Below, piece by piece: positions 50,801-56,800 of a stretch of DNA of 64,000 bases. The stretch is taken from assembly GCF_000026545.1 (NCBI RefSeq), contig NC_011601.1. One strand, written 5' to 3'. Made by a program: the position numbers. The number at the start of each line of letters is the position of its first letter. Within the stretch, counting starts at the first letter, position 1. This DNA is from Escherichia coli O127:H6 str. E2348/69. GTDB lineage: Bacteria; Pseudomonadota; Gammaproteobacteria; Enterobacterales; Enterobacteriaceae.

Positions 50801-53800
50801 AGTGAGGGGCTGTCTCAATCGAAGGTAGCGAAGCATCTCGGCGTTAGCGTGAGCACCGTTAAACGTCACTGGAACAAGGGTTAGGGGTGATGACCTACAA
50901 CCAAATGAGGTGCCAGCACTGGCCGTTACTGGGCTGTGGGAGATGGATGACCTACAGCTTTTGTATTTATTTCAGAGTGTTATGTTATGCGAAATCTCGT
51001 AATGCTATGATTTATAGTGTATTTTCGTATTACTTGCGGCTCTTGATGCGAAGAGATGGCGGGGCTTTAGCCGTGCCAGACGATGAGCATCAAGATCAGA
51101 TTGTGAATGTGATTCATCACTGAACAATTCGAGGGATGGGGCAGGGGAAGGGATCAAAGGCTGCGTTGTCCAATCACTAAGCTAGATTTGAAGCTGGTCA
51201 ACACGTTAGTAGTATCTTTAAAGTCGCATTTTAAATACATGTACAAAAAAGGGTTCTTCCCCTACATCCCCTTCTCCTAATCAGTGTTATCGCTTCACGC
51301 TCACCACTGGCTGCGCTTCTCGCTGTGCTCCAGCCCACTCGATCGCCTTTGGCTCATTCCCGGTCTTCGCCTGCTGTGATGCTCGGCCACTCTACGCAAC
51401 CGTGCTTGCCGTGGCATGCAACGCGGCGGGGATGTGTAGTGGAACGGTACTTTTTATCTATATTATTAATTTAATCAATCACATACTGTTATCGGTAGGT
51501 ATTCTTCAAAACATCTTCATTCATTTCTGTATCGTTCAATCATCTTTCTTGTTCGTTTCCTTTCAGGTCTTAGCCGTTGGTCATTGGTCTTACTGCCCGC
51601 TGTGCTACTGCCAGCTATGGCACGCCGTCACGGTCTACTGTCTGTCACCTGTCCTACTGCGTTCACTGTCTGCCGTCTGTCATCCTGTCGGATTCCATCC
51701 GTTGACGTTCCGCGCTCGCTTGTTTCGGCTGCGCCGCGCTCGCTCTGCGTATCTAGCGATACTATATCACTATAGACACTTTCATAATTATATAATGATT
51801 ACAGTAACTTATGTTTTCTGTTTTAAAAGCTACTAATAAGGAGATATAGAGCATTACTTACCCGCTTTTGACCGACAAAAATCGCGTTGTTAAGTATTGC
51901 CAGCCCAGGCTCAATAAGGCTTAGCGAGGTGGTGGCTAAAAAATGAGCTAATGAAGGTATCTACTAAGGAGAAAGAATAACTCCCGAAGCGCGACAAACT
52001 CTCCGATTTTGAAAGTGACTATTAAGGCAGATAAAGACACTGACACTGTTGCTGACATGAAAACTTCTAAAAGGGCAGAGAGTCTGCCGAACCCGTACCG
52101 CTGACCCAACCTGAGCTAATACCTACCCCTATTTTCTGGAGATTTCACCATGCCAACAAACCTACGCCGCCTGCTTGCGCAGGCTGCCGACGCTGACCCG
52201 CTCAATACTGCGGACGCAGATGTACAGCAAATGATCGCTGACGGGATTGTTATTCGACGTTCCAAGATATGCCCTGTAAAGCGTAAACCCGTTAAGGCGG
52301 CATACAACACAAAGACCGAAGAGTTTTATTACAATGCAGATGGCTCCGCGATGACCTTGCGGGAGTGGCGAACGCTGCACGGTGTTCAACCGAAGAAACA
52401 AAAACAGCGCTCTGACACTGGGTTGCGGCAAGTCATCCAGCCCGGCGACGCGATTCACTGCCGACGCGCTGAGATTGAGCAATGGCTTAATAAGAAGCCC
52501 GCTCGTTATGTTGACCCGCTGCCGCCAGATTTTCCCGGTGTTCGCGTAGACGATGCCGCATTGAAACCGCGCGAGCACGCCGTGCCGGAAGCGACAACCG
52601 GACAGAATGCTTTTCTCAAAGCCTGCCGCGAGTTCCTGATTTGCGATGAGAAGACCATGCGCCGTATCAGTCGGGGCATGAACCAAATGGAAGCTATGCG
52701 CAACGCAGATTTCAAACGCTACGGAGACTCAGGGGAGTTTCGTCAATTGTGGTGTGGAGAGTCGAAGCCTACCGAAGATAGATTTAATAGTTCTAATCAT
52801 CATTGTGACCCGAACGGCTTGGCTGCTTCGCCGTCTGTGCCGCCACTGAATACTGCACCGTATGAGTTCCGCCCGCTGGCTCGCTGTGACCGAAACGCAC
52901 GCGTTAGCCTGCTGCCACCTGATGGGCTGGAGTGGAGGCCGGGGCAGTTGTCTGTTGCTGATGCGATCTTTTCCCGTGGCAGTGATGTGCTTGCCGTACT
53001 GCCGACCGGGTATGGCAAAAGCGCCGCCTTCACTTATCCATTGATTTATGAGTCCCGCGCTGGCATTGGCCTGTCTGTAATCGTGGTTCCTACTAATACC
53101 CTTAAGCGTCAGATTCTCCGCCAGTTGCGGGAGGCTGGCATTCACGCTGTGGCCTTTGGCGATAAGCTACCGAGGCACCGCAACGCACAACAACTGGCGG
53201 GACTAGCAGCCGGGGCGTTCCGGGTTGCTGTTGTTTCGCCTGAACATCTGGTTCCGTCGAGTCAGGTTCTCGCGGCGCTGATGGCTTATGGCGTTGATCG
53301 TTTTATTATCGATGAGGCACACACGGTCAAAGACTGGGATTTCCGCCCAGCTTACGACGCAATGCAGCACACACTACAGAATGCTTTTCCCTCGGCTCAG
53401 CGCTGCGTGTTTACGGCTACTCTACTACGAGAAAATGAGCGCGGTTTAATGGAGGCGCTGGGATGCCGTGGCGATTACGTTACATTCCGTGCTGATGTTG
53501 CTCGCGAGAATATCCAGTTGATTCCGGTCAGGCAGTGCCGCCAGCGATACCGCGCGGCTGTTGGTCTGGTCGAGGCTCTGCCAGAGGAAGAGAAGACGCT
53601 CATTCTAGTCAATGACCTTAAGACGTTGCGGGCGTACCTGAAACTCTTCGGCGACCGGGCGCGCCCATATCACTCGAAGACGATGCACCTGAGCAACGAG
53701 GAACGCCACGCAAACGCTGAGTGGTTTGCCTCTGCGCCGGGCGCGATTCTGATTGCTACTAAAGCCTTCGGGCTGGGTGCTGATGTTCCTGATATCCGTA

Positions 53801-56800
53801 ACGTTGTCGTGACATACGTTCCCGATGACTTGCCTGATCTCGTTCAGATGATTGGACGAGCCGGGCGCGATGGGGAACCTGCCCGCGCTTTTCTGCTGTG
53901 GTCATCGCTGGCGCTGGATGTTGCTCCTGATGAGCTTGCTTACTTCTACCGCCCTGAAAACTGTAACTGGCAGTACATCGCTAAATACCTCTGAGTCGAA
54001 AGGCTCTCCCTGATTCTCTGGAGTTAATCATATGCCTGTTACCGAACATGCGCAGCGTCGTGCTGCGCGTGCGGATGCGCTCATCACCGCACAACTAGCC
54101 TTTGCCCTGAATGGGTACAACTGGGATGAACTGGCCGAACCTCATCGCAAGACCCTTAATCGTGAGGCCATCATTCGCGAGGTATCTACACCGCTGGAGC
54201 GATATTGCCTGCTGAATGATTGCGAGCCGTGGGAGTGTCTGGCCGCTGTACTGAACCGCATGAAAAGGCCGGATGGCTCGCGTCGCTGGAAAGCCGTCCG
54301 GTTGTCCGACCGGGTTTTCAATGGCCGGGTGCATCCAGTGCGCAAGACTCCTGATGAAGTTTACGCCGCCATTGCCCGCCGCTTGTTCCTGCCGAAGCCT
54401 GTGCATCAAGAAGTGATACAGCACATCCGTGCGCTTGGCTTGTTACCAGTTGGAGATAACCACCAATGACGAAATCTGAATTTGAAAATGAAACATGGCG
54501 AATGAAGGGCTTGCTTCTTGGGGCGCTGATTCGCCGCCTTGAGGAAGATAAGGCTGGCGAGTCGCGCATGGTCGCAGCGGAGTTATCCAGTGCGGTCAAC
54601 TTCCTTAAGGCCAACGCCGTAGAAGCGCCGGACACATCATTCAACAACGTGTTCCCGGAGGATGACGAACAATGACCCCTGAACAATTCAGACAATGGTT
54701 CGCCACGCTGCCACCGAACTATCAGAGCGCCGCACGCACCATGTACGACAACGCCCGCAAGTCGGGCATACATACCGCGTCAAGCCTTGCGCTGATTCAC
54801 ACGTTGGTTACTGACCAGATCAAATTTGATTCGGAGTTTAATTTATGACTTTGAGTATTACCGATATCCAGCGCATTAACGCGCTGGCTCATAAGCACCT
54901 AAAGAACAATGAAGAGATTGCAGCGGAGACAGGTCATACCCTGACCGATATTGACGCTGTAATCCGTGGCGTCTATGTCGATGACTTGGCCGAACATTGG
55001 AAAGACGATGCTGATATTACTCTGGCGGAGTACAACGCCATCCGCAGCCGCTATAAGCCCGGCAAGTTGCACCGCGATACAGAGTTTATGATTGCCCGCG
55101 ATATGCTGATTCGCCCTGAGACTGTGCTGGCTATCGCCCATTCCCGCTTTAGCAACGTCCACACGCACCCAGTGCCGAAAGCCGTCAAAGCAAAGCCGGA
55201 GAAAGCGAAAGTAGTGCGCAAGTTAGTGCTTACTGATTTAGATGAAATCCACAAGTTAGAGCGCTTCGGTTGGCCTGCTGCGGAGATCGCCGGGAAGCTG
55301 GGCGTCCCTGTTGAGGTCGTCGCGCATGTGCAACGCTGCCTGAGAAATCGTTGGTCGTACCCGGATACTCTGGAGTCTGTTAACTCCAAATTCAGCGAGG
55401 CTGAATGATGGCAGAGAACGAACCGCTGCACCCCGCCGTTAACCCTGATCTCTACGTGAACCTTGACGAACAACGCGAAGGATACGCTCCGATTGAATCA
55501 CAGGGTTGGGATGTGCTGACGCAGAACCTGACCGGGAAAGGTCGAACTGACCCCAGCCAAACACTTAACCAGAATCCGAAACAACGCCCGCACGGCTCCG
55601 TTGGTGAGCGTCGTTGGCTTCGTAAACGTGGATTACTTTAACGAGGAATTACCATGAGCAAAACTATCGTATTGCTGCCGCCCCGCAAGAATACAGACTG
55701 GGCTGCACAATTAAAGCTGATTTCTGAATCGCTTGAGGTGAGTCAGGCAGACCTCGCCCACGCCTATCAGGTTGATCGTCGGGATATGGGTAAAGCGTAT
55801 CACGGTGTGCGCAAACTGCCGGAGCGTTGTGTGCCTGTTCATATGCTGTTGTTAGCGCAGGTACACGACTTTAGAGCATTATCAGGAGAATAATTTATGT
55901 CTGACCAGAATGTTAATCCGTACCTTTCCGGTGCTGATGCTGCATCGCAGCAATCGCCATACATGGCTGCACCTGTTGGCGCTGACAATGGCGCATCCCG
56001 CTTTAGCTCTGTGCCTGCTGATGCTGATTTCCTCCGTACCCAGCCCGTTAACGGTAATGATGGCGGCCAATGGAATAATGGCAGTATCGCGAATCAGCAG
56101 GATCAGAACGCTGACAGCGCCGGGGCGCAGGTGGGCGATACTATCTCCCTGATGGATGGAACAGCTATTGAGTACACCGCCGAGCTGCAAGGATTGATGG
56201 GGCAGTTTCACCAGTCTGTCGAAAGCCAGCTAGGGCAGGGGACAGTTGACGCTATGTTGCAGTACGCTGGCACGCTCGACGCCGGGACGCAATCGACCCT
56301 TGAACGGATGGTTATGTCTGGCGACCCTGCGCAGATGCAGCGGGCGGTTCAGTATCTGCAAGAGCGTATGGCTGGCGGTTCCATTACCGGTTACGTCCCG
56401 AACGGCCAGACTGCCGCGCAACCTGTCGGAATGTCACATGCTGAGTTTATAGCAGCGTATGACCAGCTTTCGCAGTGGGCGCAGCAATCAGGGTATGGCC
56501 CCGGCCATCGCCAGTACGACGAACAATACCGTGCTCTGGTTGCGCAGCGCTCCGCTGGCAAACGTGCTGGTCGCTAACGCCCAACGGTGGAATGCGCCCT
56601 GCAAGACTGAGTGCGCACCAACCCGGTACTACCACACCAATCTAAGCGCATGAGTCCCCGCAAGCCGCATTCTGCGCGGCATCTGAAAGCCTGTTTTTAA
56701 TTAACCGAGGTTCGTAATGAGTACCTGTAATTTCCATGCCGTGGTGCGTGTCGCTGACGTGCGCCCGGATTTCGCCTTGCCGCTGGGTAGATGCGACCAC

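What the first reader, a model, noticed from the sequence alone, without database searches (positions are those of the whole stretch)
52150..53994. SF2 helicase with RecQ-like motif VI and a long N-terminal extension
All the core helicase motifs are present (GYGKS, DEAH, TAT, QxxGRAGRDG), but the protein has a ~260-aa N-terminal region with an AlpA/Xis-like segment and a cysteine/histidine-rich stretch (NHHCDPNG...CDRN) and lacks RecQ C-terminal domains. It could be the island replication initiator, or a defence-type helicase.
Basis: partly seen in the sequence, partly recalled or inferred. Interest (0 to 1): 0.55.

Follow-up and report, generated by a model that had tools for sequence, protein, structure and literature searches.

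The report
RecQ-like helicase of a capsid-encoding island
The gene is a real RecQ-type DNA helicase with a unique front end, and it is the conserved lead gene of a 15-kb mobile island that carries its own T7-like phage capsid and scaffold genes, so it most likely serves the island's replication or DNA handling when a helper phage infects.

Summary
The ORF at 52150-53994 (+, 614 aa) is real. The window is E. coli E2348/69. Residues 261-588 form a RecQ-family catalytic core with all motifs, but the RecQ zinc/RQC/HRDC domains are absent. Residues 1-260 are conserved, under purifying selection, and have no homologue outside this family among 1.84 billion representative proteins.

The context matters more. 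The gene opens a + strand gene string (a presumed operon) in a 15.06-kb island bounded by a 31-bp repeat at tRNA-Leu. The island encodes:
- a major capsid protein 56% identical to that of Bonnellvirus phages (T7 relatives);
- a truncated scaffold homologue;
- a weak T7-type small-terminase match;
- HNH and endonuclease VII nucleases, a resolvase and an integrase;
- swappable defence cargo.

The same layout recurs in Enterobacter and in an Enterobacteriaceae metagenome bin, at a second insertion site.

The best reading is a phage-satellite-like element whose only NTPase, this helicase, drives its replication or DNA mobilisation. Arrays of same-orientation repeats lie just upstream. Confidence is about 0.4. 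A role against the helper phage is the main rival. The PADLOC "DpdF" label is a naming artefact. I found no published description.

The parts
47258..47342 (+). tRNA-Leu(CAA) gene. Its last 31 nt (47312-47342) form the left copy of the island's direct repeat (attL).
   Evidence: ARAGORN; Rfam tRNA; direct repeat D1
47860..49852 (.). Left cargo slot: g01 (47860-48408, +) and g02 (49160-49852, -). Low GC. Other genes occupy this slot in related islands (Eco29kI restriction-modification, DUF2971).
50315..50884 (+). Serine recombinase (resolvase/invertase), conserved in every related island examined.
   Evidence: phrog_125 E 5e-55; Pfam Resolvase in L003, L005, L011, L013, L014
50885..52149 (+). 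Conserved 1.27-kb non-coding region upstream of the helicase. It has two AT-rich troughs (about 51430-51550 and 51760-51850), a pyrimidine-rich CTGTC cluster (about 51580-51700), and no sigma-70-like promoter.
   Evidence: about 92% conserved in the E. coli genomes that carry the helicase, with no CDS annotated beyond the recombinase
51763..52045 (+). Array of about five same-orientation repeat units with a (A)CTA..TAAGG..AGA core: ATCACTATAGACAC at 51763, then TAAGG at 51837, 51915, 51965 and 52023. Candidate origin iterons, a packaging site, or phage-type promoter-like units.
   Evidence: The distant island L003 has 10-11 copies of tACTAAGGnGAGtATAAC at about 33-bp spacing.
52150..52929 (+). 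Helicase N-terminal region, residues 1-260. An orphan region of at least two modules (about 1-90 and about 125-205) followed by a proline-rich linker.
52930..53994 (+). RecQ-family catalytic core (residues 261-588) plus a conserved 26-aa tail.
   Evidence: Pfam; NCBIfam; PDB RecQ 4tmu/1oyw; Foldseek E 1e-17
54032..55893 (+). Six small core ORFs (g05-g10). g06 (54466-54675) weakly resembles a T7-type small terminase. g08 (54845-55408) has a weak helix-turn-helix match.
   Evidence: Pfam DNA_Packaging_2 i-E 0.034; BLASTP vs Lidtsur TerS E 3e-4
55897..56577 (+). g11, a truncated head-scaffolding protein homologue (226 aa against about 400 aa in phages).
   Evidence: hhalign vs Bonnellvirus scaffolds: probability 93%, E 2.6e-7, C-terminal about 100 residues colinear to the very end
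56717..57130 (+). g12, a small protein with a weak C-terminal helix-turn-helix match.
   Evidence: Pfam HTH_23 i-E 0.018; phrog_7061 and phrog_836
57350..58345 (+). Major capsid protein of T7-like type; the closest phages are Bonnellvirus.
   Evidence: phrog_267 E 3e-64; 56% identity to Lidtsur and J8-65 MCP
58362..59996 (+). HNH endonuclease (58362-58871), g15, g16, and an endonuclease VII-like protein (59571-59996).
60038..60940 (-). Right cargo slot, holding AbiTii here. Related islands carry Eco47II or NmeDI-type restriction-modification systems in this slot.
   Evidence: PADLOC AbiTii E 2e-48
61028..62239 (-). Tyrosine integrase.
   Evidence: phrog_1 E 3e-35
62373..62403 (+). Right copy of the 31-bp direct repeat (attR). 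The island therefore spans 47343-62403 (15,061 bp).

Best explanation
The protein is an active RecQ-family SF2 DNA helicase. The usual RecQ accessory domains are replaced by a lineage-specific, two-module N-terminal region. It is the first gene of the long rightward gene string, and the only NTPase, of a 13.5-15-kb tRNA-integrated island. That island also makes a T7-like capsid protein, a shortened scaffold and probably a small-terminase-like protein, which is the gene set of a phage satellite. The candidate helper is a Bonnellvirus-like virulent phage.

Most likely mechanism. After helper infection the gene string is switched on. The N-terminal modules direct the helicase to the island's own DNA, namely the repeat arrays in the non-coding region just upstream, or to a replisome protein. 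The RecQ core unwinds DNA 3'-5', so that the helper's or the host's replisome can amplify the excised island for packaging.

Shown: the gene, its motifs, its conservation, the island's boundaries and gene content, and the repeat arrays. Inferred: satellite behaviour, the identity of the helper, DNA targeting by the N-terminus, and the replication role.
For: The RecQ core has intact, invariant ATPase and helicase motifs. Both halves are under purifying selection.

In every relative examined, the helicase is linked to the same island core: resolvase, non-coding region, helicase, small ORFs, scaffold-like gene, HTH gene, MCP, nucleases, integrase. This holds in E. coli, Enterobacter and an Enterobacteriaceae metagenome bin, at two different insertion sites. 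The flanking slots swap restriction-modification and Abi cargo.

It is the only Walker-type NTPase in the island, and no primase or initiator is detectable.

The MCP is 56% identical to Bonnellvirus MCP. The scaffold homology is supported by hhalign at E 2.6e-7. The TerS-like signals are weak.

The island measures 15.06 kb against helper candidates of 41-43 kb, roughly the 1:3 ratio seen for P4 and P2. That ratio comes from my own knowledge.

Same-orientation repeat arrays and AT-rich stretches lie directly upstream of the gene.

Stand-alone paralogues of N-terminal modules sit just upstream of the helicase in sister islands. This is reminiscent of truncated-initiator regulators.

The host genera of the family (E. 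coli, Enterobacter, Cronobacter, Kosakonia, Citrobacter) overlap the hosts of Bonnellvirus phages.
Against: Nothing here shows excision, replication or packaging. The Logan contigs of about 14-15 kb are explained by assembly breaks at the 31-bp att repeat, not by circular forms.

To my knowledge, RecQ-type helicases are not known as replication initiators in bacteria or phages.

The N-terminus has no recognisable DNA-binding fold.

The repeat arrays differ in sequence, number and position between island lineages. Their TAAGG core also resembles a stop-codon-plus-ribosome-site junction that is common in T7-like phages.

The nearest phage MCP is only 56% identical, and no shared promoter or other sequence links the island to Lidtsur.

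RecQ-like helicases are frequent in defence systems, and the island sits in a defence-rich hotspot.
Confidence: 0.4

Rival explanations
1. The helicase is a weapon against the helper or invading phage. It acts on phage DNA, for example by dismantling replication forks, D-loops or concatemers. It may work with the island's HNH and endonuclease VII nucleases, so that the phage genome is not packaged and the island benefits or the cell population is protected.
For: RecQ-like helicases recur in defence systems: DpdF sub-models and PsyrT both hit the core. The same gene string carries two nucleases. Known satellites of virulent phages interfere strongly with their helpers (my own knowledge of PLE). 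The island lies in a defence hotspot and carries Abi and restriction-modification cargo.
Against: The recognisable defence genes sit in variable slots, whereas the helicase is in the invariant core beside the morphogenesis genes. No known defence partner protein is present. The upstream repeat arrays and the paralogous N-terminal mini-ORFs fit self-DNA targeting better.
Confidence: 0.25
2. The helicase is a recombination or branch-processing enzyme. With endonuclease VII it generates and tidies concatemers of the island, through recombination-dependent replication or branch migration, so that a T7-type terminase can package them. This would parallel the pairing of the UvsW helicase with endonuclease VII in phage T4.
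For: It has a RecQ-type core. An endonuclease VII homologue is conserved in the same gene string and also in the candidate helper phages. T7-like packaging needs concatemers (established knowledge).
Against: This does not explain the lineage-specific N-terminal modules or the adjacent repeat arrays. The WH/HRDC domains that RecQ uses for branched substrates are absent.
Confidence: 0.15
3. It is DpdF of a Dpd (7-deazaguanine DNA modification) system, or a PsyrT/RqlH-type toxin helicase. In either case it would be a stand-alone defence or toxin-antitoxin component unrelated to the island's life cycle.
For: PADLOC sub-model PDLC02858 'DpdF' matches at E 1.9e-277, and PsyrT matches at 1e-39.
Against: The curated DpdF model scores 124 bits against a cutoff of 550. 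No other Dpd protein is in the island. PDLC02858 matches end to end at near identity, so it was evidently built from this same family, and the hit is circular. RqlH/PsyrT carries a C-terminal PRTase domain and needs the RqlI/PsyrA partner (PMC4670107); neither is present.
Confidence: 0.03
4. It is a decaying remnant of a T7-like prophage with no current function.
For: The island contains phage-derived genes and lacks a polymerase, portal, tail and large terminase.
Against: The same compact gene set is conserved across genera and insertion sites, with intact ORFs and dN/dS of about 0.13. The candidate helper phage Lidtsur encodes no protein similar to this helicase.
Confidence: 0.05

Closest known systems
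Bacterial RecQ (E. coli / Cronobacter RecQ catalytic core, PDB 1oyw, 4tmu)
   Same: Two RecA-like lobes with motif 0, motifs I-VI and the aromatic-rich loop. It is the best sequence and fold match: phmmer E 3e-31, Foldseek E 1e-17.
   Different: About 27-30% identity over the core only. It has no zinc-binding, winged-helix (RQC) or HRDC domain, and it adds 260 N-terminal residues found nowhere else. It is an accessory gene, present in about 1% of E. coli genomes.
RqlH / PsyrT (RecQ-like helicase of the PsyrTA / RqlHI toxin-antitoxin-like pair)
   Same: A RecQ-like core carried on a mobile or accessory locus in E. coli; PADLOC PsyrT E 1e-39.
   Different: RqlH has its helicase domain at the N-terminus, a toxic C-terminal PRTase domain, and a DprA-like partner, RqlI (PMC4670107). 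None of these is present here.
DpdF of the Dpd 7-deazaguanine modification/restriction system
   Same: An SF2 helicase core with RecQ-like motifs; several PADLOC and NCBIfam DpdF models hit the core.
   Different: It scores below the curated cutoff, and no dpdA-K neighbours are present.
Replication modules of known satellites (SaPI/PICI Pri-Rep, P4 alpha, PLE RepA)
   Same: The proposed role is the same: an element-encoded NTPase next to iteron-like repeats that launches satellite replication on helper infection (analogy from established knowledge).
   Different: Those proteins are SF3 / D5-type helicase-primases or RepA_N initiators. This one is an SF2 RecQ-type enzyme with no primase domain. 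Its repeats lie upstream of the gene.
HSV-1 UL9 origin-binding protein
   Same: A precedent, from my own knowledge, that an SF2 helicase fused to a sequence-specific DNA-binding domain can act as a replication initiator.
   Different: It is eukaryotic-viral, its DNA-binding domain is C-terminal, and no homology extends beyond the SF2 core. It was not tested here.
Capsid-forming PICIs (cf-PICI) and P4-like satellites
   Same: Integrase-bounded islands of about 11-15 kb that carry capsid-related genes and hotspots of defence cargo.
   Different: cf-PICIs carry a full head module (portal, protease, connectors) of siphovirus type, and P4 carries sid/psu/delta/alpha. Here only an MCP, a short scaffold and a weak small-terminase match, all of T7-like type, were detected. 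Nothing in PHROGs marks a portal, protease, connector, Sid, Psu or alpha.

Membership tests
RecQ family helicases (NCBIfam TIGR00614 recQ_fam) | Helicase core with motif 0, motifs I-VI and the aromatic-rich loop | tested here: met
   WRPGQ, PTGYGKS, DEAH, DWDFRPAY, FTAT and QMIGRAGRDG are all present and invariant in the family. RecQ structures are the top matches.
RecQ family helicases (NCBIfam TIGR00614 recQ_fam) | Score at or above the curated family cutoff | tested here: not met
   140.6 bits against a cutoff of 219.8. The RecQ equivalog TIGR01389 scores 153.5 against 640.2.
RecQ family helicases (NCBIfam TIGR00614 recQ_fam) | C-terminal zinc-binding and winged-helix (RQC) module, with or without HRDC | tested here: not met
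   No PF16124, PF09382 or PF00570 hit. The protein ends 26 aa after motif VI.
DpdF (Dpd system) | Curated DpdF model NF041063 at or above its cutoff | tested here: not met
   124.4 bits against a cutoff of 550.
DpdF (Dpd system) | Encoded in a dpd cluster with DpdA/B/C and DpdD-K | tested here: not met
   No other island protein hits any Dpd model in PADLOC.
PsyrT / RqlH | C-terminal phosphoribosyltransferase domain | tested here: not met
   No PRTase domain in Pfam. The architecture is defined in PMC4670107.
PsyrT / RqlH | Adjacent PsyrA/RqlI (DprA-like) partner gene | tested here: not met
   The downstream g05 (145 aa) has no hit in PADLOC, Pfam, PHROGs or NCBIfam.
Phage satellite (general definition) | Integrase-bounded element with att repeats, much smaller than a phage | tested here: met
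   31-bp attL/attR, 15,061 bp, tyrosine integrase.
Phage satellite (general definition) | Some phage-derived morphogenesis or packaging genes but not a complete virion gene set | tested here: met
   MCP, a scaffold homologue and a weak TerS match are present. No portal, tail, large terminase or polymerase was detected.
Phage satellite (general definition) | Induced, replicated and packaged only with a helper phage | not testable with these tools
   Needs infection experiments. No sequence evidence of excised or packaged forms was obtained.
cf-PICI | Full capsid module (portal, protease, MCP, head-tail connectors, TerS) plus alpA and pri-rep | tested here: not met
   Only the MCP, a scaffold homologue and a weak TerS match were detected. 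There is no alpA, primase, portal or protease hit.
P4-like satellites | alpha primase-helicase, sid, psu, delta | tested here: not met
   No PHROG or Pfam hits to any of these.
AlpA/Xis (HTH_17) DNA-binding domain within the N-terminus | Recognisable excisionase-type winged helix | tested here: not met

The most novel reading that the evidence does not exclude
The island is a previously undescribed family of E. coli / Enterobacteriaceae satellites that parasitise virulent T7-like (Bonnellvirus-type) phages. They would build their own small capsids from a private MCP and a shortened scaffold. They would need no repressor, because the helper's single-subunit RNA polymerase switches them on directly at promoter-like repeat units upstream of the helicase. 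The core of those units, ACTAAGGnGAG / TCACTATAG, resembles T3/T7/SP6 promoter cores. As at the T7 origin, that transcription would also prime replication, with the RecQ-like helicase opening the origin.
Probability: 0.15. Interest if true: 0.85.

Novelty: new variant of a known kind. Interest (0 to 1): 0.6.

Why it matters
If the reading is right, the prototype EPEC strain E2348/69 and about 1% of E. coli genomes carry a satellite aimed at virulent T7-like phages. No satellite of such phages turned up in my literature searches.

Its replication or DNA-handling engine would be a RecQ-type helicase. Known satellites instead use SF3 helicase-primases or RepA-type initiators.

This would widen the known ways in which mobile elements hijack phages. 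It would also matter for phage therapy with Autographiviridae phages. It would give function to an orphan 260-residue module. Finally, it shows that a "DpdF" defence label in PADLOC can mislead.

Tried and rejected
**N-terminal homology**
- Pfam gave no hit.
- A profile against 1.84 billion representative proteins returned only the family itself and fragments.
- A profile against PDB sequences found nothing.
- AlphaFold of the full protein was poor in the N-terminus.

**Dpd, PsyrT or chromosomal RecQ membership**
- All were rejected (PMC4670107).

**T7-type promoter at 51767 (TCACTATAG)**
- The exact 9-mer occurs by chance in 16% of shuffles.
- It probably belongs to the TAAGG repeat family.
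- No similar motif and no promoter consensus was found in phage Lidtsur.
- An IMG/VR scan with the L003 repeat gave only single chance hits.

**Other tests**
- Rfam found only the tRNA in the island. No tandem repeats were detected.
- Logan contigs of about 14-15 kb were considered as evidence for excised circles. I rejected this, because a 31-bp att repeat should break assemblies that I believe use 31-mers.
- No plasmid-borne copy exists. The single 'plasmid' hit is a 4.9-Mb chromosome.
- I looked for sister islands with a different replication gene in the helicase slot, via MCP homologues. Only helicase-linked islands or true phages were found.
- Literature searches found no description of this island or protein.

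
Full report
**The observation**

The window is the E. coli E2348/69 chromosome; the query is 100% identical to NZ_CP059840.2. ORF 52150-53994 (+) encodes 614 aa. RefSeq annotates it as a DEAD/DEAH box helicase.

Pfam finds DEAD (264-428) and Helicase_C (478-575), and nothing else even at E<=10. So are RecQ motif 0 (WRPGQ) and the RecQ aromatic-rich loop (DWDFRPAY).

The best PDB sequence matches are RecQ catalytic cores: 4tmu at E 3e-31 and 1oyw, over residues 261-585 only. A Foldseek search with an AlphaFold model also returns RecQ, BLM and WRN cores first, at E 1e-17.

The protein fails every curated NCBIfam cutoff:
- recQ_fam: 140.6 against 219.8;
- RecQ equivalog: 153.5 against 640.2;
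- DpdF: 124.4 against 550.

It has no zinc-binding, RQC or HRDC domain. It is therefore a RecQ-superfamily core in a non-RecQ architecture.

**The N-terminal 260 residues**

This region is real and functional.
- It aligns from Met1 in relatives down to 42-46% identity, with many invariant positions.
- dN/dS is 0.12-0.14, the same as for the core.

A profile of this region, searched against 1.84 billion representative proteins, found only the family itself plus fragments and small ORFs. It is an orphan region.

Some of those small ORFs are informative. In sister islands, a 100-aa ORF directly upstream of the helicase is a paralogue of residues 1-87 (BLASTP E 1e-17). In others, an 83-85-aa ORF is a paralogue of residues 124-188 (E 1e-8 to 4e-10). 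The N-terminus therefore consists of at least two separable modules.

- There is no Pfam hit.
- There is no PDB profile hit.

The Cys/His patch is not conserved: HHCD becomes SQHD in distant members.

**Context**

A 31-bp direct repeat (47312-47342 and 62373-62403) bounds a 15,061-bp island at tRNA-Leu(CAA). A tyrosine integrase sits at the far end.

PHROGs, Pfam and profile comparison identify the following genes:
- a serine recombinase;
- a major capsid protein: phrog_267 E 3e-64, and 56% identical to the MCP of Bonnellvirus phages Lidtsur and J8-65, which are T7 relatives with 41-43-kb genomes;
- a 226-aa protein whose C-terminal 100 residues match the C-terminus of the roughly 400-aa Bonnellvirus scaffolds: hhalign probability 93%, E 2.6e-7;
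- a 69-aa protein with two independent weak matches to T7-type small terminase;
- an HNH endonuclease and an endonuclease VII-like protein;
- AbiTii.

The helicase is the only Walker-type NTPase in the island. No primase, initiator, portal, tail or large terminase was detected.

**Conservation of the island**

The helicase occurs in 58 of 5426 complete E. coli genomes, once per genome. It also occurs in Enterobacter, Citrobacter, Cronobacter and Kosakonia.

Every context I fetched shows the same core order: resolvase, then 1.1-2.6 kb of mostly non-coding DNA, then helicase, small ORFs, scaffold-like gene, HTH gene, MCP, nucleases and integrase. This includes an Enterobacter island whose helicase is only 44% identical and which sits at a different chromosomal site.

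The slots at both ends hold different cargo in different islands: Eco29kI, Eco47II and NmeDI-type restriction-modification systems, AbiTii, and DUF2971. Cargo-swapping hotspots of this kind are described for P4-like satellites (PMC9122126).

MCP homologues of island type were always linked to the helicase. MCPs at 56% identity or less were in true phages.

**Upstream region**

The 1.27 kb between the resolvase and the helicase is conserved in the genomes that carry the helicase, and no CDS is annotated in it beyond the recombinase. Its features are:
- no sigma-70-like promoter, 0 found against 2.1 expected;
- two AT-rich troughs;
- a pyrimidine-rich CTGTC cluster;
- about five same-orientation units with an ACTA..TAAGG..AGA core.

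The distant Enterobacter island has 10-11 copies of tACTAAGGnGAGtATAAC at about 33-bp spacing.

These units could be origin iterons, a packaging site or phage-type promoter-like elements. Their core resembles T3/T7/SP6 promoter cores. It also resembles the stop-plus-ribosome-site junction common in T7-like phages. Nothing similar occurs in Lidtsur. Their function remains open.

**Interpretation**

The island has the anatomy of a phage satellite of a T7-like virulent phage. The helicase is an invariant core gene of the island, not swappable cargo.

By analogy with SaPI Rep, P4 alpha and PLE RepA, the element's sole NTPase would most plausibly launch or support island replication. Supporting features are its private targeting modules, its position next to repeat arrays, and the truncated paralogues nearby.

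I give this 0.4. No step of excision, replication or packaging is shown. RecQ-type enzymes have no such precedent in bacteria to my knowledge. The N-terminus has no recognisable DNA-binding fold.

The rivals are:
- interference with the helper's DNA (0.25);
- concatemer or branch processing with endonuclease VII (0.15);
- an inactive prophage remnant (0.05);
- Dpd or PsyrT-type defence (0.03).

The striking PADLOC hit, DpdF sub-model PDLC02858 at E 1.9e-277, covers the model end to end at near identity. It is best explained by the sub-model having been built from this very family. No other Dpd gene is present.

**Novelty**

Seven literature searches found no description of the protein or the island. 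The library is incomplete, so prior description cannot be excluded.

I class the finding as a new variant of known kinds: a RecQ-family helicase and a phage satellite.

Noticed in passing
window 57350-58871: An HNH (HNH_3) endonuclease gene sits 17 nt downstream of the island's capsid gene. In the distant Enterobacter island the HNH gene lies upstream of the helicase instead. It could be a homing-type nuclease aimed at the helper's allele of a neighbouring gene.
   Followed up: no
window 50889-50956; L011 8173-8240; L014 8872-8939: A direct repeat TGACCTACAGC (GATGACCTACA in E2348/69), two copies 57 bp apart, lies immediately after the resolvase stop codon in three island lineages. It is a candidate recombinase site.
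   Followed up: partly
window 51220-51760: About 500 nt of the + strand is strongly pyrimidine-rich and C>G skewed (GC skew down to -0.48, AT skew down to -0.67). This composition resembles a Rho-utilisation tract, which could insulate the helicase gene string from read-through transcription.
   Followed up: no
window 51767-51775: TCACTATAG, the exact -8 to +1 core of the T7 promoter, is followed by a 22% GC stretch. It is conserved in L005 but is expected by chance in 16% of shuffles. It probably belongs to the TAAGG repeat family.
   Followed up: partly
L011 9675-9977; L003 9741-9992; L013 4753-5010: Small ORFs directly upstream of the helicase in sister islands are paralogues of separate parts of its N-terminal region. 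E2348/69 has no such ORF.
   Followed up: yes
protein P0070 (E. coli, 1057 aa): One database protein fuses the C-terminal half of this helicase family (73% identity) with phage tail-fibre domains (Collar, Phage_fiber_2). It is probably a rearrangement or a mis-call.
   Followed up: no
window 62628-64000 and beyond (L001 30479-41845): Directly after attR lie a type I restriction-modification system (hsdRSM), DUF4942, McrBC and a phosphorothioate-dependent restriction endonuclease. The island therefore abuts a dense restriction cluster.
   Followed up: no
Logan contigs of 14.1-15.2 kb: Many public assemblies hold the island as a separate contig of island length. It is not evidence of free circular forms.
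   Followed up: partly
window 31000-34000: There is a marked low-GC stretch (0.37-0.39) well outside the island. It overlaps a frameshifted hypothetical gene in the RefSeq annotation.
   Followed up: no
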